From assembly GCA_003598085.1 (NCBI GenBank), contig QZKU01000145.1, positions 9,123 through 73,122 on the forward strand: a stretch of DNA of 64,000 nucleotides. Reading direction: 5' to 3'. The stretch is from Candidatus Abyssobacteria bacterium SURF_5. Lineage in GTDB: Bacteria; Abyssobacteria; SURF-5. Within the stretch, counting starts at the first letter, position 1. The number at the start of each line of letters is the position of its first letter. The notes beneath the pieces were generated by a model. It saw only the letters and a program-made list of their open reading frames with translations, ran no database searches and was not told where the DNA came from. Made by a program: the position numbers and the translations under genes. This document shows positions 18,243-29,224 of the stretch, piece by piece.

Positions 18243-19133
18243 ATGATCGAGATCGCCGACCGCATCTACTTCATCGAGTCCGAAAACAGAGGGCGCTATC
18301 CGAACTCGCACTCGCTGTTTGTCGATGACGATTTGGGTATGGTTATCGACCCGGCCTGCCGCGAAGAATTGATGCTTGAACTGGCTGCGAGTCATAAGAC
18401 GAGTATCATCCTCAACACTCACTACCACGAAGACCACAGGATCTACAATTACTGCTTCACCCGCGCACAGCTTTACACACATGAGCTCGATGCCCGCGGC
18501 TACGGCTCAATCGAGGACTTCATGCAGGATTTCTCGGTTGTCAACAGCGATACGCTCAAGAACTTCTGGCGCGATTTTCTGCTCGACAACTGCAAATACC
18601 GCCCCTATACAGTCGCTCAGACTTTTTCCGACGGCTTCCAGATCGACCTCGGACATACCGTTGTCAAAACGATTCATACCCCCGGCCACTCCGCAGGCCA
18701 CAGTTGCTTTTATTTCCCCAAGGAACAGGTGCTGTACCTGGGCGATATCGACCTCACCTCCTTCGGGCCATGGTACGCCAGCCGGAATTCCGATATCGAC
18801 GCCTGGCTGACCTCGATCGAGCGCGTCCGCCGGTTGAAACCTAAAATCGTGGTTACCTCGCATGGCGACGGCCTGGTGACTGAGAACCTCGACGCCCGAA
18901 TCCAGACGTATGCTAATACAATTCATCAGCGCGATAACCGCATCCTCGAGTTCCTGCAGCGCCCCCGCACAAAAGAGGAGATTCTGGACCTCGAAATCGT
19001 CTACCGGCGCAATCATAAATCACCCGACTCTTTCTTCTACTGGGATGACCGTATGATGATAGAAATGCACATTTTTCGGCTGGAACGGCAGGGTCGATTG
19101 AAAAGACTTGACAGAAATTATGTTATAGGATAA
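18243..19133 (+). CDS. MBL-fold metallo-hydrolase
   Basis: HYHEDH (HxHxDH) and the downstream H and D ligands are present. The start was moved to the ATG at 18243, which has a GGGAG ribosome-binding site; the ORF-track start at 18198 has none. Confidence 0.8.
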   Translation: MIEIADRIYFIESENRGRYPNSHSLFVDDDLGMVIDPACREELMLELAASHKTSIILNTHYHEDHRIYNYCFTRAQLYTHELDARGYGSIEDFMQDFSVVNSDTLKNFWRDFLLDNCKYRPYTVAQTFSDGFQIDLGHTVVKTIHTPGHSAGHSCFYFPKEQVLYLGDIDLTSFGPWYASRNSDIDAWLTSIERVRRLKPKIVVTSHGDGLVTENLDARIQTYANTIHQRDNRILEFLQRPRTKEEILDLEIVYRRNHKSPDSFFYWDDRMMIEMHIFRLERQGRLKRLDRNYVIG

Positions 19134-19198
19134 AATGTTCACTGATAACCTATATCCTGAGGCGGGGCTTCTTTCCTCGGTTACTCTCGGCAATTTTC

Positions 19199-19227
19199 TT
19201 GACATCGAATCAAAAAGGAAGTAAAAT
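19199..19227 (+). promoter_or_regulatory. Sigma-70 promoter TTGACA-17 bp-TAAAAT with a roughly 200-nt leader before the KAS gene
   Basis: -35 TTGACA at 19199-19204, a 17-nt spacer, and -10 TAAAAT at 19222-19227. The leader contains the hairpin CCGCTGT...ACAGCGG at about 19347-19379. Confidence 0.5.
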
Positions 19228-19437
19228 GTCTCATAAAAGGGGAGGGACGTAAAGTTTGGCCGCTGGTCGGTAGCAAAGAGGTACTTGATTTTTTGATGTA
19301 ATTACTTGCAGATACGCCACTTATAACCGGAGAATGTTTTCAGTCCCGCTGTCTAAGCACCCTCGCATGGAACAGCGGATCGATCCGGACCCGGCGGACA
19401 CATGGGACCGGGTAATCAGGGAGAAGGAGTAGGAGCG

Positions 19438-20730
19438 GTGAACAGGCGTTGCGTAGTGACAGGACTGGGCGTGGTTTCATCGGTGGGGATCGGCAAGGAA
19501 GCGTTTTGGGATTCACTCGTTCATGGACGTTCGGGCGTTTCCTATATTACGCGCTTCGATACATCAAAACTGCCGGTTCATCATGGCGGCGAAGTAAAGA
19601 ACTTCAATCCCACAGACTATATGGACGAACTCCGGGCGCAAATGTCCGGCCGTTACGTTCATTTTGCCGTTGCGGGCACAAAATTGGCGCTCGAGGACGC
19701 CGGCATCGAGCCTGATATGTATGACCGGTCCAGAATGGTCATGTATGGCGGCTCGACCGCGCCGGCGGCTGATTCTATCGAGAGCCACCTTCGAATCGCA
19801 ATCACCGACGACCCGTTCAATGCGCCCCCCTATGCGCTTGCCTCTATCGCAATGCATTCCGCCATAGGAGAAGCCGCCCAGACCGCAAATGTTTTCGATT
19901 CCTCGACCACAATCTCCACACACTGCACTTCCGGCCTGAACGCCATAGGGTTCGGACTCGATGAGATTCGCAAGGGTCGAAAGGATATTGTGGTGGCCGG
20001 CGCAACCGATTGTACGCTCACCTACTACGCTTTCATCAGCTATATCCTCGCGGGTCTGCTGGTGCCGGAGGAAGGGGTTCCACCCGAGAAGATCATGCGC
20101 CCGTATGACAAGAACCGTCGCGGCGGCGTGATGGCGGAGGGAGCGGGATTCCTCGTGCTTGAGGACCTGGAACATGCGCGCGCTCGCGGGGCTCACATTT
20201 ACGGCGAAATCATTGGACACGGGTATAAAGATAAAATCAACCTGTCGAAGTCGACAATGCTGACAATGTCCAGCGCCATCAGGGCGGCGCTTGCCAACGC
20301 ACGAGTAAGACCAACCGACGTGGACTACGTTCTGGCGAACGGCAATTCAACTATCGTGCAAGATAAGATGGAGACAAGGACCCTGAAGGAGGTATTCGGC
20401 GAGCACGCTTATCGATTGCCCGTGAGCGCCATAAAGTCAACGATTGGCATACCGAATTCAGCCATCGGTCCGATGCAGGTGATCGCTGCTTGCCTCGCGT
20501 TTGAATCCAACCTGATCCCTCCCACGATCAATTATGAAACCCCCGACCCCGAATGCGACCTCGACTACGTCCCAAATCACGCGCGGTTCAATCGGGTGAA
20601 TATGGCGGTTGTCAATAATTATGGCATGGACGGCGCCTGCGCCGCCGTACTCGTTAAGAGATACGGCAACGGGGAGGCCGTCTCATTTGGCGGCAGAGAC
20701 GGCGCATGCAAAAGTGACGGCGACAGCTGA
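19438..20730 (+). CDS. Beta-ketoacyl-ACP synthase II (FabF)-like protein with Cys retained but both catalytic His replaced
   Basis: VNRRCVVTGLG matches the FabF N-terminus, and a GAAGGAG ribosome-binding site precedes the GTG at 19438. The active-site Cys sits in STHCTSG (codon 19924-19926). The AHGTST His is replaced in ANGNST (Asn at 20338-20340). The KSMTGH His is replaced in KSTIGIPN (Ile at 20449-20451). The VPPTIN..CDLDYVP motifs are intact. Confidence 0.85.
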   Translation: MNRRCVVTGLGVVSSVGIGKEAFWDSLVHGRSGVSYITRFDTSKLPVHHGGEVKNFNPTDYMDELRAQMSGRYVHFAVAGTKLALEDAGIEPDMYDRSRMVMYGGSTAPAADSIESHLRIAITDDPFNAPPYALASIAMHSAIGEAAQTANVFDSSTTISTHCTSGLNAIGFGLDEIRKGRKDIVVAGATDCTLTYYAFISYILAGLLVPEEGVPPEKIMRPYDKNRRGGVMAEGAGFLVLEDLEHARARGAHIYGEIIGHGYKDKINLSKSTMLTMSSAIRAALANARVRPTDVDYVLANGNSTIVQDKMETRTLKEVFGEHAYRLPVSAIKSTIGIPNSAIGPMQVIAACLAFESNLIPPTINYETPDPECDLDYVPNHARFNRVNMAVVNNYGMDGACAAVLVKRYGNGEAVSFGGRDGACKSDGDS

Positions 20731-23277
20731 ATGGATCCGAAACCGATAAGCATTCTCGTTACTGCACTTTTCATTTTCATTCTCGGCACCTATGTCTTCG
20801 CCAAGAATTCCAAAAAGATCATTAATATCTCCTTCCTTGGCCTCGCCTATAGCTGCGGCCTGTGGGCGCTCGCGCTGTTCACCATCAGTATCGAAACCCG
20901 CTATGAGGTGTTGAAGTTTGCGGGCCATATGGCATTCGCCACCGGCGCGCTCCTCACCTGCAATTTCCTTCTGTTCGCGTATGTGTTCCCGGATAAAAGA
21001 GATGAATTCCCGCCGCTGCGAACACTGCTCATCATCTGTGCGCCGGGCGCTCTCATGGCGCTGCTCAGTTTTACGCCTTTTATCATGAAAGATATTGCGT
21101 ACGAAGGCGAGAAGGTCAGGCCGGTATACGGGGCCGGCATCTACATATTGATGTTGTACCACGTCGCCTGCGCCTTCATCGGTTTTTTCCTGCTGGCGCG
21201 GAAATTCCTCAAAACGAAAGTCCGCTTTGAGAGGGTGCAACTGAAATACACCTTCTGGGGAACCCTGCTTTCGGCCATCGGAATCGTCACGTTTGCGCTG
21301 CTTCTGCCCATTGCCGGCGTCTCTCAGTATTCGGGTCCCTTGAGCGCAGTCTTTATCGTGATTGCCAGCGCAAGCCTATCATACGCCATCGTGCGGCACC
21401 GCCTGATGGATCTGGGCGTGGTTTTCAGAAATGTCCTCATCTATATCGGAACGGTCGCGGCGCTTGGCGCCGTTATGGGACTGGTGACTCTCTTCACCCC
21501 TGTCCTGCGCCTGCAGCTCGAAGCAGTTGCCTTCCTCTCGGTTCTGGCGGCTTCGCTCCTGGTGTATCCTGTGCGCAACGGCATCGAGACGCTCGTGGAC
21601 AGGTTCTTCTTTCACGGCCGCTACAATTATCAGGCCGCCCTGACCGAGTTCAGCCATTCGATGACGAAAATCCTGGACCTCGAAGACCTGCAGAACCGGA
21701 TCGTCCATGAGGTGGCCTCCATCCTGCAGGTAAAAAGCGCCACCATCTTGCTTCACGAGACGGGCGAGAAGAAATACACGGTGAGAGCCGCGATACCCAT
21801 AGAACTTGCTGATGCTCACCATGAGATCGGCGCAGACAGCCTCATTATCCGGCAGATGATGCAGGATCACACGCTGCTCGTGAAAGAGGAAATGAAACGC
21901 TCGCTTCCGGTCTCCCGATTTCAGCCGATCGAGAGCGAGTTCGACCAGATACACGCAGAGGTGATCATCCCGCTGTTCTATCGCGAAGATCTGCTCGGAC
22001 TGCTCACATTGGGCGAGAAAATCTCGTCCGATATCTACTCGGTCGAGGACATCAATCTGCTCGTCACGCTCGGCAATCAGGCCGCCGTCGCGCTGGAGAA
22101 CGCACTGCTGCACCACACCGTCATCATGCTCAAGAATCACAACGACAACATCCTCAAGTACATGAGCAGCGGAGTCGTCGCCATCGACAAGAACCGGATG
22201 ATCAACACCTGCAACGACAAAGCCAGGGAAATTCTGCGACTCCCCCAGGACGGCGTCATCCATGGCAAGATCGATCTGCTTCCGTCTCCCCTGCGCGAGA
22301 TGCTTTCCGACACCCTCGCCGGCAAGAACCGGTACTCGAATCAGGAGGTGCAGATATTATCACCCAAAGGCTCGATCTGTTATCTGAGCGCAAGCACATC
22401 GCTGATCAAGGAAGAGAAGGGCGTCGTGACCGGCGCACTGCTGGTGGTAAACGACCTGACCGAGATCAGGATTCTTGAGGGCGAGATGTGGCGGGCAGAC
22501 AAGCTGGCCTCTCTGGGCACACTTGCCGCCGGCATGGCGCACGAAATCAAGAACCCGCTCGTCTCCATCAAGACCTTCGCCCAGTTGCTGCCCACCCGCT
22601 TCGAAGATACGGAATTCCGCGAAAAATTCTCATCCATAACGGTTGACGAGGTCGAGCGAATAAATTCTCTGGTGGAAAAACTCCTCGAATTCGCGCGACC
22701 GACGGCGCCGCTTTTTGAGACGGCTGACATCATCGACCTCATCGAAGAGGTCCTGCTCCTGCTCAGCAACGAGACGTCGAAGGTGGGCGTGACGGTCGTC
22801 CGTAATTTTGACGTCGATTCCGCTCCCATCGTCTGCGATAAGAGCCAGTTTAAGCAGGCCCTGCTCAATTTGTGCCTGAACGCGCTGCAGGCGATCGAGG
22901 CGTCCCGCAACAATTCCCATAAGGAATTGCGCGTCAGCGTCTCGCTCAGGAAAAGCAGATACTCCGGCGGGACTTCCCGCGACCAGGTCTCGGAGATGTT
23001 CTACGGCCTGGACATACCGGCCACCATCGATGACGCCCAGACCGTTGTCATCAAGGTGCGTGATTCAGGACAGGGCATCAGTCGCAAGAACCTCGGCAGG
23101 ATTTTCGATCCGTTCTTTACGACGAAAGAAAAAGGGCTGGGGCTGGGACTGGCCGTCGTTCACGGAATCATCAAGGAACACTCGGGCAGCATCACCGTAG
23201 ACAGCAAAGAGAATGTGGGGACCGAGTTCACCATCTCGCTGCCGGTGACACAGATATTCGCGAAGGAGAGGGCATGA
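20731..23277 (+). CDS. Sensor histidine kinase: N-terminal 7-8 TM sensor domain, GAF, PAS, HisKA, HATPase_c
   Basis: 848 aa. The first 270 aa or so are polytopic. The H-box reads MAHEIKNPL, and G1 (DSGQGI) and G2 (GLGLGLAVV) boxes are present. Its ATG at 20731 abuts the KAS stop (TGAATG). Confidence 0.9.
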   Translation: MDPKPISILVTALFIFILGTYVFAKNSKKIINISFLGLAYSCGLWALALFTISIETRYEVLKFAGHMAFATGALLTCNFLLFAYVFPDKRDEFPPLRTLLIICAPGALMALLSFTPFIMKDIAYEGEKVRPVYGAGIYILMLYHVACAFIGFFLLARKFLKTKVRFERVQLKYTFWGTLLSAIGIVTFALLLPIAGVSQYSGPLSAVFIVIASASLSYAIVRHRLMDLGVVFRNVLIYIGTVAALGAVMGLVTLFTPVLRLQLEAVAFLSVLAASLLVYPVRNGIETLVDRFFFHGRYNYQAALTEFSHSMTKILDLEDLQNRIVHEVASILQVKSATILLHETGEKKYTVRAAIPIELADAHHEIGADSLIIRQMMQDHTLLVKEEMKRSLPVSRFQPIESEFDQIHAEVIIPLFYREDLLGLLTLGEKISSDIYSVEDINLLVTLGNQAAVALENALLHHTVIMLKNHNDNILKYMSSGVVAIDKNRMINTCNDKAREILRLPQDGVIHGKIDLLPSPLREMLSDTLAGKNRYSNQEVQILSPKGSICYLSASTSLIKEEKGVVTGALLVVNDLTEIRILEGEMWRADKLASLGTLAAGMAHEIKNPLVSIKTFAQLLPTRFEDTEFREKFSSITVDEVERINSLVEKLLEFARPTAPLFETADIIDLIEEVLLLLSNETSKVGVTVVRNFDVDSAPIVCDKSQFKQALLNLCLNALQAIEASRNNSHKELRVSVSLRKSRYSGGTSRDQVSEMFYGLDIPATIDDAQTVVIKVRDSGQGISRKNLGRIFDPFFTTKEKGLGLGLAVVHGIIKEHSGSITVDSKENVGTEFTISLPVTQIFAKERA

Positions 23278-23278
23278 T

Positions 23279-25288
23279 ATGGATGTAGTCGTCATTGCAT
23301 CAAATGAAAACAGCATTCAGGAATCTCTCCGGATGCTGCTCGGCGAACGATACATGGTTCTGGTGGCGCGCTCGCTCCCGCAGCTCATCAATATCGTAAA
23401 CGATCACCCGGTTGATGTGGTCATTCTCGATGAGTTCCTTGGGGCGGAGAACTGCGCCTGGGCGTTCGACCAACTGCGCTCGGTTTCGCCCGAGATTACC
23501 TGCATCGTGCTGGCGCTCCAGACCATATCCGAGGCGGCCAGCGAGCTGCGCGCCAAAGGCGCATACGATATCGTGAGCAAACCCTTTGACCGCGAGGTCC
23601 TCCTGACCGTTATCTCGCGGGCGGTCGAAAGATCGCGCCTGATGGCGCGGCTGGCGGCGGCAAAACAACCCGTCCGCACCACCGAACCGCTCCCCTTCGA
23701 CGCCGTCGAACCGTCGAGCGAGCGAAAGGAGATGCTCGATTCGCTGCGACGATTCCTGCGGGCCGTCACCGACGTGCTTGCGCCCGAGCGCCTGCATGCC
23801 CTCGTGCTCGATGCGGTCGTCGAGATGTTCTCGCTCAATAAGGCCGTCCTGCTCCTCTGGAACGAGGAAAAACAGCGGATGGTGATGAAGGCGGCGGTGG
23901 GCCTCCAGGTGACCGGCCTCGAAGGGTACGAGGCGCCGTGGAAAAGCCTGATGCAGTGGCTCCACCGGCACGACCAGATTCTCAATCTTGACGACCCGGC
24001 GCGGGAGGCCGAGCCGGGCGAGATGCTCGAAGTGCGGAAAGAAATGGCCCTGCTCCAAGGCCGCCTGTGCGTGCCGCTGACGGCAAAAGGAAAAATGAGC
24101 GGCGTGCTCGTGCTGGGCAGGAAGATAACCGGAAAACGCCTCTCGGACGTCGAGATCGAGTTCCTGTACCTGCTTTCCCAGCAGATCGCCGCAATCATCG
24201 AAAATGCCCGGCATCATCGCGCTGTCCTCGTACAGAAGGAACGATACAAAGACATCCTGCAGGGCGTTACTTCCGGCCTCATCGCGACCGATGCCGCCGG
24301 CAGGCTCCTTCTTCTGAATAAGGCGGCCGAGCAAATCCTGAAAGTAAAGGCGGCGGATGTCACCGGACATGACGTCCAGCGGATCGGCTCGATGTTCGCC
24401 GATATCGTCAATCGCACGTTGCGCGAAGGAAAATCGTTTTGCAGGCATGAGGTGACCGACCCGGCCACCAAAGCGCTCCTCGGCATCAGCACCTCGGTCT
24501 TGACCGACGACGCCGGGAAACCCGTCGGTGCGGTCGCGCTCTTCACCGATCTGTCCACCGTCAAGTCCCACGCCGGAATGGATGTCGATGAAGCATGGCA
24601 ACGCTGCGCGCTGTGCATGGCGCAGGAGATCAAGAACCCGCTGGTCGCCATCCGGACCTTCACCCAATTGTTTCCACAGAATTATGCGGACGAAAAATTC
24701 CGAACAGAATTTGCTCAAATTGCGCTCAAGGAGATAGATAAGCTCGATGCCGTCGTCGAGAAACTCCTTAAATTCTCTCAGCCGCTGCAACTTCGTCCGG
24801 AACAGGGCAACATCAATAACCTTATCGAAGAGGCCCTCAACCAGGCCCTGCAGGATGCGGACAAGCCAAACGTGGTGATTAACAAAAATTTCGAGACGGC
24901 CAACGGCATTGGAATGTTCGACAGGAATCTGCTCGGCGAGGCTTTTGTCCAGGTATTCCGGAATGCGCTGGATTCGATGCCTTCGGGCGGAACCCTGAAC
25001 ATCTCGGCTGCAACTCGAACCGGCGAGACCTCCGCCGCCGGCGCCCAGGGAAATGGGTCCTCGGTGCCGACCGTCACGGAAATTTGTATTTCCGACTCCG
25101 GCTCCGGAATCGCACCGGAGGATATGGGCAACCTGTTCAAGCCGTTCTATTCCAAGAAGGTCAAAGGGATGGGCCTCGGCCTGGCGATATCCCGGAAGAT
25201 CATTCAGGGTCATAAAGGCGACATAAGCGTCTTGAGCGAACCGAACCGAGGGACGACCGTGAAGGTAGTTTTACCACATGGAGCATAA
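23279..25288 (+). CDS. Histidine-kinase-like protein lacking the phospho-acceptor His (H-box MAQEIKNPL): degenerate N-terminal receiver, GAF, PAS, DHp-like, intact HATPase_c
   Basis: 669 aa. The receiver acidic pocket DD is replaced by SN (VVVIASNEN), but the Asp of ILDEF and the Lys of SKPF are retained. The DHp His is replaced by Gln. N-box, G1 and G2 are present. The start lies 2 nt after the upstream kinase stop. Confidence 0.85.
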   Translation: MDVVVIASNENSIQESLRMLLGERYMVLVARSLPQLINIVNDHPVDVVILDEFLGAENCAWAFDQLRSVSPEITCIVLALQTISEAASELRAKGAYDIVSKPFDREVLLTVISRAVERSRLMARLAAAKQPVRTTEPLPFDAVEPSSERKEMLDSLRRFLRAVTDVLAPERLHALVLDAVVEMFSLNKAVLLLWNEEKQRMVMKAAVGLQVTGLEGYEAPWKSLMQWLHRHDQILNLDDPAREAEPGEMLEVRKEMALLQGRLCVPLTAKGKMSGVLVLGRKITGKRLSDVEIEFLYLLSQQIAAIIENARHHRAVLVQKERYKDILQGVTSGLIATDAAGRLLLLNKAAEQILKVKAADVTGHDVQRIGSMFADIVNRTLREGKSFCRHEVTDPATKALLGISTSVLTDDAGKPVGAVALFTDLSTVKSHAGMDVDEAWQRCALCMAQEIKNPLVAIRTFTQLFPQNYADEKFRTEFAQIALKEIDKLDAVVEKLLKFSQPLQLRPEQGNINNLIEEALNQALQDADKPNVVINKNFETANGIGMFDRNLLGEAFVQVFRNALDSMPSGGTLNISAATRTGETSAAGAQGNGSSVPTVTEICISDSGSGIAPEDMGNLFKPFYSKKVKGMGLGLAISRKIIQGHKGDISVLSEPNRGTTVKVVLPHGA

Positions 25289-25289
25289 G

Positions 25290-26885
25290 ATGCATAAAAT
25301 TCTTGTGGTCGATGACGAATTAAGCGTGCGCGAAGCGTTGCGCATCATCTTGAAGGACAACTTCGAGGTTATCCTGAAGGATTCCGCCGAAGCGGGACTC
25401 GAATACTTGAATTTCAATGAAGTGGATCTCGTGTTTCTCGATATCCTGATGCCGGGGATGTCGGGGCTCGAGGCGCTCAAGATCATCAAAACGCGGCCGC
25501 AGCCGCCGGAGGTAGTCATCGTTACGGCGACGCGTACCGTAAAGAACGCCGTCGAGGCGATGAAGCACGGCGCATTCGAATACGTAACCAAGCCCTTCGA
25601 CGTCGATGAGATCAAGTTGATCGCCGAGCGCGGAATCGAAAATCATCACCTCGTCCTTGAGTGCTCATCGCTCAGGCAGCAGATGGAAAACGAGAAGGAG
25701 CGGTTTTACAAGGAGCTCGAGGGCAAGGTGCGCGAGCGGACGGCGGAGCTCGAGGAAGCCAACCGGAAACTGCGGGAGACACATGAGCAGCTGGTGCGGT
25801 CGGAAAAACTGGCGTCTCTCGGCGAGTTGGTCGCAGGGGTCGCCCACGAACTCAACAATAAGCTGCTGCCCGTCCTCGCGTACGCGCAACTGCTGAAAGA
25901 GCAGAAATTCCCCGACGGCATCCTGCGCTACGTCGATACCATTGAGCGTTCGGCCTCGGCCGCGGCCTCGGTCGTCAGTTCGCTGCTGAATTTCTCGCGT
26001 CCCTCAAGCGCCACCAGAAACCCGGTGGACCTGAACGCGACCATGCGGGAAACCCTTTCTTTGCTCGATTACAAGATCAAGGCCGGCCGCGTGCGCGTCA
26101 AAGTCGAGCTCGAGGAAAGGATTCCGCTTACCATGGCGGATGAAAAGCAGATCGCCCAGGTGTTCCTCAACATCATCAATAATGCGTTTCAGGCGATGGA
26201 GCCGAACGGAGGCGAACTGAACATTCGCTCCACGCGAAAAGGCGACAACATCTTCTTCACGTTCACCGATACCGGCTGCGGGATTTCCGAGGAACACATG
26301 CTGAAAATCTTCGACCCCTTCTTCTCAACGAAAGGCAGCGGAGGCACCGGCCTCGGCCTCAGCGTCTCGCACGGATTGATTAGCGCCCACAAGGGCGAGA
26401 TCACCGTAAAAAGCAAAGTGGGCAAGGGGACCACGTTCACCATTCGACTTCCCATCACGAGAGTCATGGAAGAAAGCGCTGTCAAGGAGGAACCGATCCG
26501 CTATACTCCTCAGAGGACAAAGCCCCGCGTTCTCGTCGCGGAGGATGATCCCGATTGCATGCTGGCGATCACCGATATTCTGAAGGCCGAACATGAGGTT
26601 ATTTCGGTGTGCAATGGCCAGGAGGCGGTGAAAAACCTGAAGAAGGAGAATTTCGACCTCCTGATTGTGGATTGCAGAATGCCGGGCTTGAACGGGGTGG
26701 AATTGTATCGGTGGCTCATCGAGAACAAGAGCGAGCTCCAGCGGCGCGTCATCTTCATGACCGGCGATATTTTCGTGCCCGAAATCAAGTCCTTCCTAGA
26801 GAAATCCGGCTGTCCGTACATCACGAAACCGTTCGTTATGGATGACTTCAAGCGAACGATTACCGCCGCTCTCACGGCGCCATAG
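25290..26885 (+). CDS. Hybrid histidine kinase REC-HisKA-HATPase_c-REC
   Basis: The N-terminal receiver carries DxxMPGMSG. The H-box reads VAHELNNKL. The C-terminal receiver carries LLIVDCRMPGLNG. The start was taken at the ATG at 25290, which has a GGAG ribosome-binding site and lies 2 nt after the upstream stop; the track start at 25278 overlaps. Confidence 0.9.
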   Translation: MHKILVVDDELSVREALRIILKDNFEVILKDSAEAGLEYLNFNEVDLVFLDILMPGMSGLEALKIIKTRPQPPEVVIVTATRTVKNAVEAMKHGAFEYVTKPFDVDEIKLIAERGIENHHLVLECSSLRQQMENEKERFYKELEGKVRERTAELEEANRKLRETHEQLVRSEKLASLGELVAGVAHELNNKLLPVLAYAQLLKEQKFPDGILRYVDTIERSASAAASVVSSLLNFSRPSSATRNPVDLNATMRETLSLLDYKIKAGRVRVKVELEERIPLTMADEKQIAQVFLNIINNAFQAMEPNGGELNIRSTRKGDNIFFTFTDTGCGISEEHMLKIFDPFFSTKGSGGTGLGLSVSHGLISAHKGEITVKSKVGKGTTFTIRLPITRVMEESAVKEEPIRYTPQRTKPRVLVAEDDPDCMLAITDILKAEHEVISVCNGQEAVKNLKKENFDLLIVDCRMPGLNGVELYRWLIENKSELQRRVIFMTGDIFVPEIKSFLEKSGCPYITKPFVMDDFKRTITAALTAP

Positions 26886-26890
26886 GCGGA

Positions 26891-29224
26891 ATGCGACCTG
26901 CACATATGATTGCAAACCTCGTCAGCAAGCGCCCGTGGTATATCCTCATGTTTTCCGTTCTTGTCACTCTTGTGCTCGCAGTCGGAATACCCCGCCTCAA
27001 AATGCGCCCTTTCTTCGAGGGAGATCTCCCGGCCACCGATCCCGTCCTCGTCGCCAACGAGCACTATAGCTCCATATTCGGCAAGGACGAGGTGGCTTAT
27101 CTGGCGCTGGTGAGGGATGATTCCATTTATCACGCCGACACGCTCGAAAAAATCGCCGCAATTACAGAAGAATTGAATTCGCTCGATCATGTGCTGGCCG
27201 AGCAAACGCTCAGCCTGGCCACCGCACGGAAAGTGACCTGGCGCGATTGGGGGCTCGACGTGCGAAAACACCTGTCGCCGCCGCCCGAATCGTCCGATGA
27301 CATCGAGCGCCTGCGCCAGGACGTGCGACACGATCCCGATATCTACGACCGGCTCGTTTCGAAGGACGAAAAGGCGACGCTCCTTATCATCAGGCTCCAG
27401 CCGGGCTATAACCAGCGGCAGTTGTATCGGTCGCTTCATGCAATCGCAGATGAGTATGCCGGACCCGAGCGGATTTATCCTTTCGGACACCAGGTTATGA
27501 ATGAAGAGGCGAATCTGGGAATCCTCCACGATGCCCGCGTCCTCGGTCCTGCGGCGCTGCTGCTCATGGCGGTCGGCATCTCGATTTTCTTCCGGTCGCC
27601 CCGCCTGGCGATCGGACCGGTGCTGATGGTGACCATGAGCATCGTGTGGACGATCGGCTTCATGCATTACATCCGCTTCCCCATGTCGGTGCTCAGCTCT
27701 TCGATACCTGCAATGCTGATAGCGATCGGCAGTTCTTACATGATCCACGTGATTTACAGCTACATCGAGCAGTCATCGAAGGGAAACGCGGCGGAAGCGA
27801 TGGCGCAGGGGATTCGAAAGGTGGGTCCGCCGATCCTGCTTGCAGCCGTAACCTCAATGGTCGGCTTCCTCACCTTGATCGTTTTCAAGATTCTCACCAT
27901 ACGCGAGTTTGGGGTCACGGTGGCGATCGGCGTGGGGTTTTGCGCGCTCCTCGCCCTCATGGTGCTGCCGTCGATTATTATCTTGCAGAAGAAGTCCGTT
28001 CCACCTCGATCCATTAAGAACATGGATGTTCTCGATAGATTTCTGGCGTGGATCGGGCACGTCGGGGTGAACCATCGATACCGGGTGGCGATCGCGGGGT
28101 TGGCGCTTTTGATAGTATCCGGCCTGGGCGTATCTCGCATCAAGATCGGATACGCTCCCGAGGAGATTTTCCCGGAGAATCACCCGGCGCGCACCGTCGT
28201 CTCCCTCTTCATCAACGAGTTCAACGGGCCGTACTCGATCAACGTGATGTTTTCGACTACCGAAGTCGACGGGCTGAAGTCGCCCGACGTTCTGCGGCGG
28301 ATTGACGATTTTCAGGCGTTCGCCGAGAGCCTGTCGAAGGTCAAACATTCGACCTCGATCGTCAATATCGTGAAAAAGATGAACCGCATCCTCAACGAGG
28401 ATGATCCTGCTCACGACAAGGTTCCTGAAAGCAGAGAAATGGTGGCGCAGTTGTTGCTGCTCCACTCGATGACACAGGACCCCGTGCAATTCGAGAACCT
28501 GGTGGACTACGATATTCAGCGCTGCAAAGTCGCAATTGCCACGACCGCCATCGACAGCATGCAGCTCGAAGCCATCTTTGATCGGCTTGCCGAATATTGC
28601 AGCACGCACTTCGGCGAAGATGTAACGGTCTCTTTCGGCGGACGCAGCCTGATCTGGATGGCGATGAACGATTACATCATCCGCGGCAAGATCATGAATA
28701 TCATCATGAATACCGTGCTCATCTGGATCATCTGCGCAGTCGCCTTCCGTTCGGTCCGATTTGGACTTGTCGGAATCATGCCGCTCACGCTGGCGACTCT
28801 CGCAACTTTTGGGCTGATGGGGCATCTTGGAATCAGGCTCGATACGGCCACCGCGGTTTTAACCGGCATCTCGGTTGGTGTCGGAGTTGATTTCGCCATC
28901 CATTTCATTTCTCGCCTGCGAAGCGAGGCGCGCACAGCTCAAACACTGAATGACGCGGTCGGGGTTACCGTTATCAAAAGCGGACGCGCCATCGTCTTTG
29001 ACGCTGCTTCTAATATCCTCGGGTTCATGACGTTCATCTTTTCCGGCTTTGGGCCGGTGCGCAACCTGGGCATCCTGATGTGCTTCACCATGGTGGCGTG
29101 CCTCCTGCTCACCCTCCTCCTTATTCCAACCCTCCTTGCGCTCTTCCCGATACCGTTCCGCCGTTTACGGGAAGAAACGCTCTTTCTCCGGCCCGTCTCC
29201 GTCGAAGCAACACGGCCTGATTGA
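26891..29224 (+). CDS. MMPL/RND-superfamily exporter (sterol-sensing-domain type, 12 TM with two periplasmic loops)
   Basis: 777 aa. The topology has two hydrophobic 6-TM blocks separated by large soluble loops. It is the last gene of the KAS-kinase operon. Confidence 0.85.
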   Translation: MRPAHMIANLVSKRPWYILMFSVLVTLVLAVGIPRLKMRPFFEGDLPATDPVLVANEHYSSIFGKDEVAYLALVRDDSIYHADTLEKIAAITEELNSLDHVLAEQTLSLATARKVTWRDWGLDVRKHLSPPPESSDDIERLRQDVRHDPDIYDRLVSKDEKATLLIIRLQPGYNQRQLYRSLHAIADEYAGPERIYPFGHQVMNEEANLGILHDARVLGPAALLLMAVGISIFFRSPRLAIGPVLMVTMSIVWTIGFMHYIRFPMSVLSSSIPAMLIAIGSSYMIHVIYSYIEQSSKGNAAEAMAQGIRKVGPPILLAAVTSMVGFLTLIVFKILTIREFGVTVAIGVGFCALLALMVLPSIIILQKKSVPPRSIKNMDVLDRFLAWIGHVGVNHRYRVAIAGLALLIVSGLGVSRIKIGYAPEEIFPENHPARTVVSLFINEFNGPYSINVMFSTTEVDGLKSPDVLRRIDDFQAFAESLSKVKHSTSIVNIVKKMNRILNEDDPAHDKVPESREMVAQLLLLHSMTQDPVQFENLVDYDIQRCKVAIATTAIDSMQLEAIFDRLAEYCSTHFGEDVTVSFGGRSLIWMAMNDYIIRGKIMNIIMNTVLIWIICAVAFRSVRFGLVGIMPLTLATLATFGLMGHLGIRLDTATAVLTGISVGVGVDFAIHFISRLRSEARTAQTLNDAVGVTVIKSGRAIVFDAASNILGFMTFIFSGFGPVRNLGILMCFTMVACLLLTLLLIPTLLALFPIPFRRLREETLFLRPVSVEATRPD

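What the first reader, a model, noticed from the sequence alone, without database searches (positions are those of the whole stretch)
23279..25288. Histidine-kinase-like protein with Gln in place of the phospho-His and a degenerate receiver
Its H-box is MAQEIKNPL. The flanking kinases read MAHEIKNPL and VAHELNNKL. The N-terminal receiver-like domain has lost the acidic DD pocket (VVVIASNEN) but keeps the aspartate and lysine positions. The CA domain (N-box, G1 DSGSGI, G2 GLGLAI) looks intact.

This is a pseudo-kinase, or a trans-phosphorylating ATPase partner, built into the array between two bona fide kinases. It may act as a regulator or scaffold.
Basis: seen in the sequence. Interest (0 to 1): 0.55.

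Follow-up and report, generated by a model that had tools for sequence, protein, structure and literature searches.

The report
Histidine-less sensor kinase paralogue, probably phosphatase-only
This gene encodes a sensor histidine kinase look-alike whose phosphorylatable histidine is replaced by glutamine; it belongs to a widespread, undescribed family that has lost kinase-specific residues many times but kept the phosphatase and ATP-binding residues, so it most likely switches a shared response regulator off rather than on.

Summary
ORF 23279-25288 (+), 669 aa, from the MAG Candidatus Abyssubacteria SURF_5, has five domains: a pseudo-receiver, GAF, PAS, HisKA and HATPase_c. Gln449 (CAG, 24623-24625) sits exactly where KinB, ZraS and ThkA carry the phospho-His. 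The receiver's acidic pair is Ser8-Asn9, while Asp51 and Lys101 are kept. The N, G1, F and G2 boxes are intact.

It is not a sequencing error. Of 43 orthologues, 30 have Gln, 13 have His, and none has anything else. The position has switched at least 5-6 times, once between proteins that are 92% identical.

The operon is syntenic: a degenerate KAS, a 7TM kinase with His, this gene, a REC protein, and usually an MMPL transporter. In distant lineages the REC protein is an NtrC-type regulator.

Across 63 representatives of the wider family:
- 17 lack His, compared with 0 of 30 in the paralogous 7TM kinase.
- Only 37 keep both His and the adjacent acidic residue.
- 61 keep the phosphatase Asn.

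My best reading (about 0.45) is a kinase-dead, nucleotide-binding, phosphatase-competent cytoplasmic co-sensor. It would act on the same receiver as the upstream kinase. The rivals are a heterodimer partner and a DivL-like allosteric pseudokinase. This is a new member, or a new family, of a known kind. No biochemistry was done.

The parts
23279..25288 (+). The gene in the finding: a pseudo-receiver-GAF-PAS-HisKA(Gln)-HATPase_c protein of 669 aa.
   Evidence: ORF list. Pfam domains. 100% identical to a protein of the MAG Candidatus Abyssobacteria bacterium SURF_5.
23279..23662 (+). N-terminal pseudo-receiver (aa 1-128). The CheY positions D12/D13/D57/T87/K109 read S8/N9/D51/A79/K101.
   Evidence: Pfam Response_reg, 2.8e-11. 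The AF2 model has a (beta-alpha)5 fold at pLDDT of about 90. Alignment with CheY and canonical receivers. BLASTP against REC1 of the downstream gene.
23795..24208 (+). GAF domain (aa 173-310), a presumed cytoplasmic ligand-sensing module.
   Evidence: Pfam GAF_3, 4.4e-10.
24233..24562 (+). PAS domain (aa 319-428).
   Evidence: Pfam PAS_4 at 1.1e-8 and PAS at 5.7e-7.
24584..24778 (+). DHp (HisKA) helical hairpin (aa 436-500). It is the most conserved domain of the family.
   Evidence: Pfam HisKA. Mean pairwise identity is 0.80 in both the Gln and the His subsets. AF2 helices at 436-463 and 472-500.
24623..24625 (+). Codon CAG for Gln449, at the position of the phospho-accepting His. It is followed by Glu450 (the kinase acid) and Asn453 (the phosphatase residue).
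   Evidence: Sequence. Alignment to KinB, ZraS and ThkA. Orthologue codons are CAG for Gln and CAT or CAC for His.
24911..25279 (+). Catalytic ATP-binding (CA) domain (aa 545-667) with intact N, G1, F and G2 boxes.
   Evidence: Pfam HATPase_c, 2.6e-18. N562, D606, G608, G610, F620, G630, G632 and G634 are invariant in 43 orthologues.
20731..23277 (+). Upstream paralogue: a 7TM-GAF-PAS-HisKA(His604)-CA sensor kinase. It is the presumed phosphodonor of the system.
   Evidence: Pfam. 28% identity over 541 aa to the finding, rising to 44-57% in the DHp. His, Glu and Asn of the H-box are invariant in 30 family representatives.
25278..26885 (+). Downstream REC-HisKA(His)-CA-REC hybrid kinase. It overlaps the finding by 11 nt. 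REC1 (about 25299-25652) is the proposed shared target.
   Evidence: Pfam. REC1 is 41% identical over 163 aa to the receiver of the NtrC-type regulator that occupies this position in a distant lineage. Both receivers carry the canonical five residues.
19402..20730 (+). First gene of the operon: a beta-ketoacyl-synthase-like protein that keeps the active-site Cys but lacks both catalytic His residues.
   Evidence: Pfam. Alignment to B. subtilis FabF 4ls5. Conserved position and substitutions in 7 lineages.
26891..29224 (+). Last gene of the operon: an HAE3/MMPL-type RND transporter.
   Evidence: Pfam MMPL at 1.4e-44 and TIGR00921 at 6e-69. Syntenic in Abyssubacteria-clade loci.
19108..19227 (+). 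Two sigma-70-like promoter matches (11 of 12 positions: TTGACA-17-TAAAAT) ahead of the KAS gene. They are candidate operon promoters.
   Evidence: Consensus scan. The genes from KAS to MMPL are separated by 0, 1, -11 and 5 nt.

Best explanation
The protein is a kinase-dead but otherwise intact paralogue of the upstream 7TM sensor kinase. It cannot be phosphorylated at the canonical site because Gln449 replaces the His.

I infer three things about how it works:
- It still dimerises through its DHp.
- It binds ATP or ADP in its CA domain.
- It docks the same NtrC-type receiver as the upstream kinase. Here that receiver is REC1 of the downstream REC-HisKA-CA-REC protein.

On that receiver it would act as a transmitter phosphatase. 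Asn453 would be the catalytic residue. Gln449 would take over the water-positioning role that His normally plays.

Its GAF and PAS domains, and its N-terminal pseudo-receiver, would set how much phosphatase activity opposes the membrane kinase. The operon would then integrate a membrane signal (kinase input) with a cytoplasmic signal (phosphatase input) on one receiver.

Shown: the sequence features, their conservation, the synteny, and the evolutionary pattern. Inferred: the phosphatase activity, the identity of the target receiver, and the role of the pseudo-receiver.
For: 1. Gln is at the phospho-His position by alignment to solved kinases.
2. It is not an error. Of 43 orthologues, 30 have Gln, 13 have His, and no other residue occurs. 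There were at least 5-6 independent switches (6 in 98 of 100 bootstrap trees). One pair that is 92% identical differs by CAC versus CAG in otherwise near-identical DNA. If any single-nucleotide replacement were acceptable, six His/Gln-only events would have a probability of about 2-5e-4. So the side chain is constrained to His or Gln.
3. There is no relaxation in the Gln lineages. The DHp is 0.80 identical and the CA 0.64-0.69 identical in both the Gln and His subsets, and all ATP-binding motifs are invariant.
4. Across 63 representatives of the wider pseudo-receiver-GAF-PAS-kinase family:
   - Only 37 keep His together with an acidic +1 residue, the residues needed for kinase activity.
   - 61 keep Asn at +4.
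   - The 26 kinase-incompetent members keep Asn +4 (24 of 26) and the N, G1 and G2 boxes (24-26 of 26).
   - The paralogous 7TM kinase keeps His, Glu and Asn in 30 of 30 (Fisher p = 0.001).
   - Published background for His-less HisKA domains is 0.9% (PMC12632262).
5. Experimental precedent exists in the same HEIKNP-type subfamily:
   - CrdS H371A is kinase-dead but still cuts the CrdA~P half-life from 53.5 to 2.6 min. N375A abolishes phosphatase activity. E372 is needed only for kinase activity (PMC3510030).
   - NRII H139N acts only as a phosphatase (bioRxiv 10.1101/122606).
   - In HisKA kinases the His positions the nucleophilic water, and the nucleotide-bound CA domain stimulates the phosphatase reaction (PMC7005713). 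This explains why the ATP-binding motifs are retained.
6. The two paralogues appear to share a partner. Overall they are 28% identical, but 44-57% in the DHp. Helix alpha-1 below the His is nearly identical (VSIKTF versus VAIRTF), whereas the downstream kinase differs (LPVLAY).
7. In distant lineages the module is [7TM kinase with His][this family, His or Gln][NtrC-type sigma-54 regulator]. That regulator's receiver is 41% identical to REC1 here.
Against: - No biochemistry exists for any family member.
- Glu450 is kept in all Gln forms (14 of 14 representatives, 41 of 43 orthologues). In CrdS this residue is required only for kinase activity. A pure phosphatase would not obviously need it, and this is unexplained.
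- The repeated presence or return of His shows that some lineages may use the protein as a bifunctional kinase.
- The requirement for His in HisKA phosphatase activity varies between kinases. PleC H610A loses both activities (cited in PMC3510030).
- The target receiver is inferred from synteny and helix similarity only.
- The shared DHp features would equally fit heterodimerisation with the upstream kinase.
Confidence: 0.45

Rival explanations
1. Heterodimer partner of the upstream 7TM kinase (FasB/FasC-like or RetS/GacS-like). The two paralogous DHp domains pair. The intact CA domain of the Gln protein then either phosphorylates His604 of the membrane partner in trans, or the pairing blocks the partner's autophosphorylation.
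For: - The genes are adjacent and translationally coupled paralogues, with a 1-nt gap.
- The DHp is the most similar region between them, at 44-57% against 28% overall.
- The ATP-binding motifs are strictly conserved although the protein's own acceptor is missing.
- There are precedents. FasB and FasC heterodimerise with a division of labour (PMC12675982). RetS-GacS and ChrS-HrrS form heterodimers.
Against: - The upstream kinase has its own complete CA domain, so there is no complementary loss.
- A partner that only donates a CA domain would not need His or Gln specifically at position 449, nor Asn453. Yet these are constrained.
- No interaction data exist. The structure tool offered here predicts single chains only, so I did not model the complex.
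Confidence: 0.2
2. DivL-like allosteric pseudokinase. The DHp/CA module is used in reverse, as a sensor that binds the phosphorylated receiver or the pseudo-receiver. It then allosterically controls one of the neighbouring true kinases, without catalysing any phosphoryl chemistry.
For: - DivL (4q20) is among the sequence and fold matches.
- DivL lacks the His and regulates CckA through DivK~P (PMC4211667 and PMC5361649, listed; PMC9491836 discussion).
- Pseudo-receivers in ShkA and CikA regulate their own kinase cores (PMC12632262).
Against: [quoted passage not shown]
- In the pseudokinase PsmA, the acceptor position varies freely (E, D, Q, V, Y), the ATP motifs are degenerate, and the D/ExxT/N motif is absent (PMC12963549).
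- Here all three features are under tight constraint, which suggests that catalysis is retained.
Confidence: 0.15
3. The protein is still a kinase but uses a non-canonical acceptor: another His, its own Asp51, or a Ser, Thr or Tyr.
For: The CA domain and Glu450 are conserved although His449 is absent. Asp51 and Lys101 of the pseudo-receiver are conserved in the close orthologues.
Against: - No other His is conserved in the DHp. The only invariant His is H645, inside the CA domain.
- The receiver lacks both metal-binding acidic residues in all 63 representatives, which makes Asp phosphorylation unlikely (role of DD in PMC12632262).
Confidence: 0.04
4. An artefact: a sequencing or assembly error, or a decaying pseudogene.
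For: His to Gln needs only one third-position change (CAY to CAG).
Against: - The same Gln occurs in 30 orthologues from independent assemblies and in 14 of 63 distant representatives.
- The reading frame is intact.
- The DHp is the best-conserved domain.
Confidence: 0.01

Closest known systems
NtrB (NRII) H139N and CrdS H371A: engineered His-less HisKA kinases of the HEIKNP type
   Same: The H-box context is the same (xAxEIKNPL). Loss of the His abolishes kinase activity but leaves transmitter phosphatase activity, which depends on the Asn at +4 (PMC3510030; bioRxiv 10.1101/122606). The nucleotide-bound CA domain stimulates the phosphatase (PMC7005713).
   Different: Those are laboratory mutants with Asn or Ala. 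Here the replacement is natural, is always Gln, recurs many times, and sits in a separate paralogue alongside a true kinase. The activity of this protein is untested.
DivL of Caulobacter (pseudo-histidine kinase, Tyr in place of His)
   Same: A HisKA/CA protein without the phospho-His that is integrated into a multi-kinase pathway. It is detectable as a sequence and fold relative.
   Different: DivL function does not need its ATPase domain or its acceptor residue. Here the ATP motifs, the Asn at +4, and the His/Gln restriction are all conserved. DivL has no N-terminal pseudo-receiver, and the domain order differs.
PsmA of Streptomyces (hybrid histidine pseudokinase)
   Same: A conserved family of kinase-like proteins lacking the H-box His. 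One homologue has Gln (PMC12963549).
   Different: In PsmA the acceptor position varies freely, the ATP-binding motifs are degenerate, the D/ExxT/N motif is missing, and its partner is DivIVA. The present family keeps all of the catalytic motifs except the His.
FasB/FasC of group A Streptococcus, and RetS/GacS of Pseudomonas
   Same: Two kinase-like proteins work on one pathway. In Fas they are encoded side by side ahead of a single regulator, and non-canonical kinase-kinase interplay is present (PMC12675982; PMC8498467).
   Different: Fas belongs to a different kinase class (ComD-like, 6TM) with complementary dispensable domains. Heterodimerisation is not shown here.
Pseudo-receiver domains in kinases (ShkA, CikA)
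   Same: A receiver fold lacking active-site residues, fused to a kinase core and likely regulating it (PMC12632262).
   Different: Here the pseudo-receiver is N-terminal, ahead of GAF-PAS. It always lacks DD1 (Ser or Thr instead). Its ligand or partner is unknown.

Membership tests
Bona fide HisKA-family sensor histidine kinase | DHp domain matching HisKA (PF00512), followed by HATPase_c | tested here: met
   HisKA 1.3e-7 (32 bits, cut-off 26.9). HATPase_c 2.6e-18.
Bona fide HisKA-family sensor histidine kinase | Phospho-accepting His at the start of the H-box | tested here: not met
   Gln449 aligns with the phospho-His of KinB, ZraS and ThkA. The codon is CAG.
Bona fide HisKA-family sensor histidine kinase | N, G1, F and G2 nucleotide-binding boxes | tested here: met
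   N562, D606/G608/G610, F620/P622/F623 and G630/G632/G634 are invariant in 43 orthologues.
Bona fide HisKA-family sensor histidine kinase | ATP-dependent autophosphorylation | not testable with these tools
   Needs a gamma-32P-ATP assay.
Pseudo-histidine kinase (HisKA domain lacking the His; 0.9% of HisKA domains, PMC12632262) | A recognisable HisKA domain with a non-His residue at the phosphorylation site, conserved rather than sporadic | tested here: met
   Gln in 30 of 43 orthologues. 17 of 63 family representatives are His-less.
HisKA transmitter phosphatase (E/D-x-x-T/N motif) | Thr or Asn four residues after the His position | tested here: met
   Asn453. N or T in 41 of 43 orthologues and N in 61 of 63 representatives.
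HisKA transmitter phosphatase (E/D-x-x-T/N motif) | Accelerated dephosphorylation of a cognate phospho-receiver | not testable with these tools
   Inferred only, from the CrdS and NRII precedents.
HisKA transmitter phosphatase (E/D-x-x-T/N motif) | A cognate receiver encoded with it | tested here: inconclusive
   A canonical receiver always follows the gene. It is REC1 of the hybrid kinase here, and an NtrC-type regulator in L088 and L125. The pairing itself is not demonstrated.
Pseudo-receiver domain (definition of PMC12632262: receiver fold lacking any of DD, D, T, K) | Receiver (beta-alpha)5 fold detected computationally | tested here: met
   PF00072 at 2.8e-11. The AF2 model has five beta-alpha units at 3-128 with pLDDT of about 90.
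Pseudo-receiver domain (definition of PMC12632262: receiver fold lacking any of DD, D, T, K) | At least one of the five active-site residues is missing | tested here: met
   DD is S8 N9 and T is A79, while D51 and K101 are kept. DD1 is non-acidic in 63 of 63 representatives.
DivL-type allosteric pseudokinase | Function independent of the ATPase domain and the acceptor residue, so those residues are free to vary | tested here: not met
   The ATP motifs are invariant, and the acceptor position is restricted to His or Gln.
FasBC-like obligate heterodimeric kinase pair | Adjacent paralogous kinase genes with complementary dispensable domains | tested here: not met
   The genes are adjacent paralogues. 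But the upstream kinase keeps both its His and a complete CA domain, so the loss is one-sided.
FasBC-like obligate heterodimeric kinase pair | A physical heterodimer | not testable with these tools
   No multimer prediction or interaction assay was available.

The most novel reading that the evidence does not exclude
The His/Gln position may be a recurrent evolutionary toggle. One nucleotide (CAY to CAG and back) would convert a bifunctional co-sensor into a phosphatase-only one. Gln would be a genuine catalytic substitute that positions the hydrolytic water, analogous to the Gln of the HisKA_3 DxxxQ motif. The whole conserved module would then be an undescribed three-component architecture in which kinase and phosphatase inputs are split between two paralogues. 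The module consists of a degenerate ketoacyl-synthase-like protein, a 7TM kinase, a pseudo-receiver kinase with His or Gln, and a receiver protein. It might report lipid or acyl status.
Probability: 0.3. Interest if true: 0.65.

Novelty: new member of a known kind. Interest (0 to 1): 0.45.

Why it matters
His-less HisKA proteins are rare, at about 0.9% of domains. The few that have been studied (DivL, PsmA) work as non-catalytic scaffolds.

This family is different. It is large and widely distributed among uncultured bacteria. It always sits next to a true kinase paralogue and ahead of a receiver. It has lost kinase-specific residues again and again while keeping the phosphatase and nucleotide-binding residues.

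If the phosphatase-only reading holds, it would be a natural counterpart of the engineered NRII H139N 'phosphatase-only' device. It would also be a clear case of kinase and phosphatase functions being split between two sensors that read different signals. Finally, it offers a simple test of whether Gln can replace His in the HisKA phosphatase mechanism.

Tried and rejected
1. A genome-contig scan with the full-length alignment. It was useful only as a control: 99 other H-boxes of this type all carry His.
2. A metagenome-contig scan with a family-specific degenerate DNA pattern found nothing, although the pattern matches the window and four fetched family contigs (five locus records, L002-L006). 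A second scan, using the pseudo-receiver alignment, gave only three true family loci. Two could be tied to orthologues already in hand (L089 = P0020, L090 = P0040); the third (L091) is a broken contig that gave no H-box.
3. Locus L001 (CP070779, labelled a complete genome) could not be used for context. The called upstream gene translates with many stop codons, the downstream gene is truncated, and genes there are spaced at regular gaps of about 100 nt.
4. A first bootstrap script timed out. I repeated it with a faster distance calculation.
5. The fold search of the AF2 model returned only generic histidine kinases and phytochromes. It added nothing beyond the sequence search.
6. dN/dS was not attempted. 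DNA is available for only a few orthologues, and at 55-65% amino-acid identity the synonymous sites would be saturated.
7. The sequencing-error or pseudogene idea was rejected, because Gln is conserved in orthologues and the DHp is the best-conserved domain.
8. An alternative His acceptor in the DHp was rejected, because no such residue is conserved.
Full report
**What is there**

The window comes from the metagenome-assembled genome Candidatus Abyssubacteria (written 'Abyssobacteria' in the record) bacterium SURF_5. The 669-aa product of ORF 23279..25288 (+) is 100% identical to a protein of that MAG annotated only as 'response regulator'. The paper describing this MAG does not mention two-component proteins (PMC6121073).

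Pfam finds Response_reg (4-112), GAF (175-309), PAS (321-427), HisKA (447-501) and HATPase_c (548-667). The best NCBIfam matches are AtoS, ZraS and NtrB-type kinases, all far below their equivalog cut-offs.

The H-box reads C-M-A-Q-E-I-K-N-P-L, and Gln449 is encoded by CAG at 24623-24625. In phmmer alignments to solved structures, Gln449 lies exactly on the phospho-His of KinB (3d36), ZraS (9jfj) and ThkA (3a0r).

The ATP-binding motifs are present: N562, D606-G608-G610, F620/P622/F623 and G630-G632-G634.

I aligned the N-terminal domain with CheY and three canonical receivers. The five active-site positions D12/D13/D57/T87/K109 read S8/N9/D51/A79/K101. An AlphaFold2 model (mean pLDDT 77, about 90 in this domain) gives a regular (beta-alpha)5 fold for residues 3-128. 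By the definition used in PMC12632262, this is a pseudo-receiver.

**Not an error, and not decay**

A search of 5.8 billion proteins returned 43 full-length relatives with the same architecture, at 33-100% identity. At the His position, 30 have Gln and 13 have His. No other residue occurs.

On neighbour-joining trees built without that column, Fitch parsimony needs 6 His/Gln changes. In 100 bootstraps, 98 trees need 6 and 2 need 5.

Some specific comparisons:
- P0009 (Gln) and P0017 (His) are 92% identical. At the DNA level they differ at this codon only by CAG versus CAC, within a nearly identical stretch.
- SURF_5 (Gln) and its sister MAG SURF_17 (His, CAT) come from the same borehole (PMC6121073).

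If any non-synonymous single-nucleotide change were tolerated, six events that all stay within {His, Gln} would have a probability of about 2-5e-4.

The Gln lineages show no relaxation. The DHp is the most conserved domain, with mean pairwise identity of 0.80 in both subsets. The CA domain is equally conserved in both, at 0.64 and 0.69.

**Genomic context**

From 19402 to 29224 there are five genes, separated by 0, 1, -11 and 5 nt:
1. A beta-ketoacyl-synthase-like protein.
2. A 7TM-GAF-PAS-HisKA-CA kinase.
3. The finding.
4. A REC-HisKA-CA-REC hybrid kinase.
5. An HAE3/MMPL transporter.

Two 11-of-12 sigma-70-like matches precede the first gene.

The same order is found in five other Abyssubacteria-clade contigs. 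Some carry Gln and some carry His. The flanking kinases always keep their His.

The finding is a paralogue of the upstream kinase, at 28% identity over GAF-PAS-DHp-CA (E = 8e-58). Identity rises to 44-57% in the DHp. Helix alpha-1 below the acceptor position is almost the same in the two proteins (H/Q-EIKNPLV-S/A-I-K/R-TF), whereas the downstream kinase reads HELNNKLLPVLAY.

It is established knowledge that positions +7, +8, +11, +12 and +15 of this helix carry most of the kinase-regulator specificity, and that paralogues normally diverge there to insulate their pathways (Skerker/Laub and Casino/Marina work, from my own knowledge). The two paralogues share four of those five positions. So they are not insulated from each other. 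Either they dock the same receiver, or they pair with one another.

**Deep conservation and the likely target**

A profile search of 1.84 billion cluster representatives found many full-length relatives of 650-700 aa. Three distant members were placed on contigs:
- L087 (35% identity, Gln): KAS, 7TM kinase, then this family. The contig ends there.
- L088 (33% identity, His): [kinase with an identical GMAHEIKNPLVSIKTF H-box], this family, then an NtrC-type sigma-54 activator.
- L125 and L126 (about 28% identity, Gln, CAG): KAS, 7TM kinase with His, this family, then an NtrC-type sigma-54 activator.

The receiver of the L088 activator is 41% identical (69% similar) over 163 residues to REC1 of the window's downstream hybrid kinase. 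REC1 also scores as AtoC/NtrC-like in NCBIfam.

I infer that the ancestral unit was two kinases plus one NtrC-type regulator. In Abyssubacteria the sigma-54 output appears to have been exchanged for a HisKA-CA-REC module. REC1 would then be the receiver on which both HEIKNPL-type proteins act.

**Family-wide pattern**

I examined 63 full-length representatives, which are clusters at 50% identity.
- The acceptor position is His in 46, Gln in 14, Asp in 2 and Thr in 1. That is 27% His-less, against a published 0.9% for HisKA domains (PMC12632262). The binomial p-value is about 1e-20.
- A further nine His-bearing members have lost the adjacent acidic residue. Only 37 of 63 therefore have a kinase-competent H-box.
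- Asn at +4 is present in 61 of 63.
- The 26 kinase-incompetent members keep Asn +4 (24 of 26) and the N, G1 and G2 boxes (24-26 of 26).
- The first residue of the receiver's acidic pair is non-acidic in all 63. The pseudo-receiver is therefore the hallmark of the family.

As an internal control I took 30 representatives of the paralogous 7TM kinase from the same search. They keep His, Glu +1 and Asn +4 without exception (Fisher p = 0.001).

**Interpretation**

The residues that mutagenesis of the closely related CrdS showed to be kinase-specific (His371 and Glu372) are exactly the ones this family loses. The phosphatase-specific Asn375 equivalent is almost never lost (PMC3510030).

Published data on related proteins point the same way:
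- CrdS H371A still shortens the CrdA~P half-life from 53.5 to 2.6 min.
- NRII H139N works as a phosphatase only.
- In HisKA kinases the His merely helps to position the nucleophilic water.
- The nucleotide-bound CA domain stimulates the phosphatase reaction (PMC7005713).

An amide side chain is a plausible substitute for the His in that role. This would explain three observations: only Gln replaces His among the close orthologues, Gln dominates family-wide, and the ATP-binding motifs are retained.

I therefore favour a kinase-dead, phosphatase-competent cytoplasmic co-sensor that opposes the membrane kinase on REC1. It would be gated by GAF, PAS and the pseudo-receiver. My confidence is about 0.45. 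The steps from 'motifs retained' to 'phosphatase active on REC1' are inference.

**Rivals**

- *Heterodimer with the 7TM kinase* (about 0.2). This is a FasBC- or RetS/GacS-like arrangement. It fits the adjacency, the DHp similarity and the intact CA domain. It does not explain the His/Gln and Asn constraints, and the loss is not complementary.
- *DivL- or PsmA-like non-catalytic pseudokinase* (about 0.15). This is less likely, because in those proteins the acceptor and the ATP motifs are dispensable or degenerate.
- *A non-canonical acceptor* (about 0.04). It lacks any conserved candidate residue.
- *An artefact* (about 0.01). It is excluded by the orthologue data.

One observation remains unexplained under every model: Glu450 is strictly retained in the Gln forms.

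**Comparison with what is known, and novelty**

Pseudo-histidine kinases, pseudo-receivers and multi-kinase systems are all known kinds. I found no description of this particular family in the literature searches.

It fails the membership test for a bona fide histidine kinase, because it has no His. It meets the tests for a pseudo-histidine kinase and for a pseudo-receiver. It carries the sequence motif of a HisKA transmitter phosphatase, but the activity is untested. It does not fit the DivL/PsmA pattern of free variation.

I rate it as a new member, in effect a new conserved family, of a known kind. Its unusual evolutionary signature is the recurrent His/Gln switching. Interest is moderate, at 0.45. 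A specialist would find the pattern notable and directly testable, but it does not overturn current concepts.

Noticed in passing
window 19402-20730 (+); also L002, L004, L005, L006, L087, L125: The first gene of the operon is a FabF-like beta-ketoacyl synthase. It keeps the active-site Cys but lacks both catalytic His residues. Compared with B. subtilis FabF (4ls5), AHGTST is ANGNST and GHLLGA is GIPNSA. The second His is missing in all 7 lineages checked. The first is missing only in the Abyssubacteria clade. So a condensation-dead KAS-like protein is a conserved partner of the 7TM kinase and pseudo-receiver kinase pair. It might bind an acyl group and feed a lipid signal to the sensors.
   Followed up: partly
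window 24605-24616 (Cys443, Cys446), and Cys59, Cys75, Cys264, Cys388 of the same protein: A C-x-x-C pair lies on the DHp helix, 3 and 6 residues before the His/Gln position. Cys443 is present in 40 of 43 orthologues. Cys446 is present in 28 of 30 Gln forms but in only 4 of 13 His forms, where it is Arg or Ser instead. Four further cysteines are conserved, in the pseudo-receiver, GAF and PAS domains. This could indicate redox or metal sensing. The Cys446/Gln association may simply reflect phylogeny.
   Followed up: partly
window 25278-26885 (+) compared with L088:3632-4999 and L125:7925-9310: The gene after the finding is a REC-HisKA-CA-REC hybrid kinase in Abyssubacteria, but an NtrC-type sigma-54 activator in distant lineages. 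The first receivers are 41% identical. This suggests an output-domain swap: the sigma-54 AAA+ and HTH modules were replaced by a second kinase plus receiver.
   Followed up: partly
window 19108-19136 and 19199-19227 (+): Two sigma-70-like matches with identical hexamers (TTGACA, 17 nt, TAAAAT; 11 of 12 positions) lie 91 nt apart, around the end of the metallo-beta-lactamase-fold gene and upstream of the KAS gene. This may be a duplicated promoter or a short repeat.
   Followed up: no
window 26891-29224 (+): An HAE3/MMPL-type RND transporter (TIGR00921, 6e-69) ends the operon, but only in the Abyssubacteria clade. In related contigs it is followed by radical-SAM and DUF362 genes. Together with the KAS-like gene, this hints that the sensors control export of a lipid or another hydrophobic compound.
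   Followed up: no
L001 (CP070779.1, 144214-166244): In this record, labelled a complete Hydrogenedentota genome, the called genes are spaced at regular gaps of about 100 nt. The gene upstream of the orthologue translates with many stop codons at the listed coordinates. The downstream hybrid kinase stops after 171 aa. The locus may be scaffolded or error-rich, so I did not use it for synteny.
   Followed up: partly
63 family representatives (alignment A4): Nine His-bearing members of the wider family have a non-acidic residue right after the His (Q, R, Y, G, K or A). This is a second, independent route to a kinase-incompetent H-box. Three members carry Asp or Thr instead of His or Gln.
   Followed up: partly
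window 20731-23277 (+), residues about 720-775: The upstream 7TM kinase has an insertion of roughly 30-40 residues between its N-box and G1-box, relative to the finding and to the solved kinases it was aligned with.
   Followed up: no
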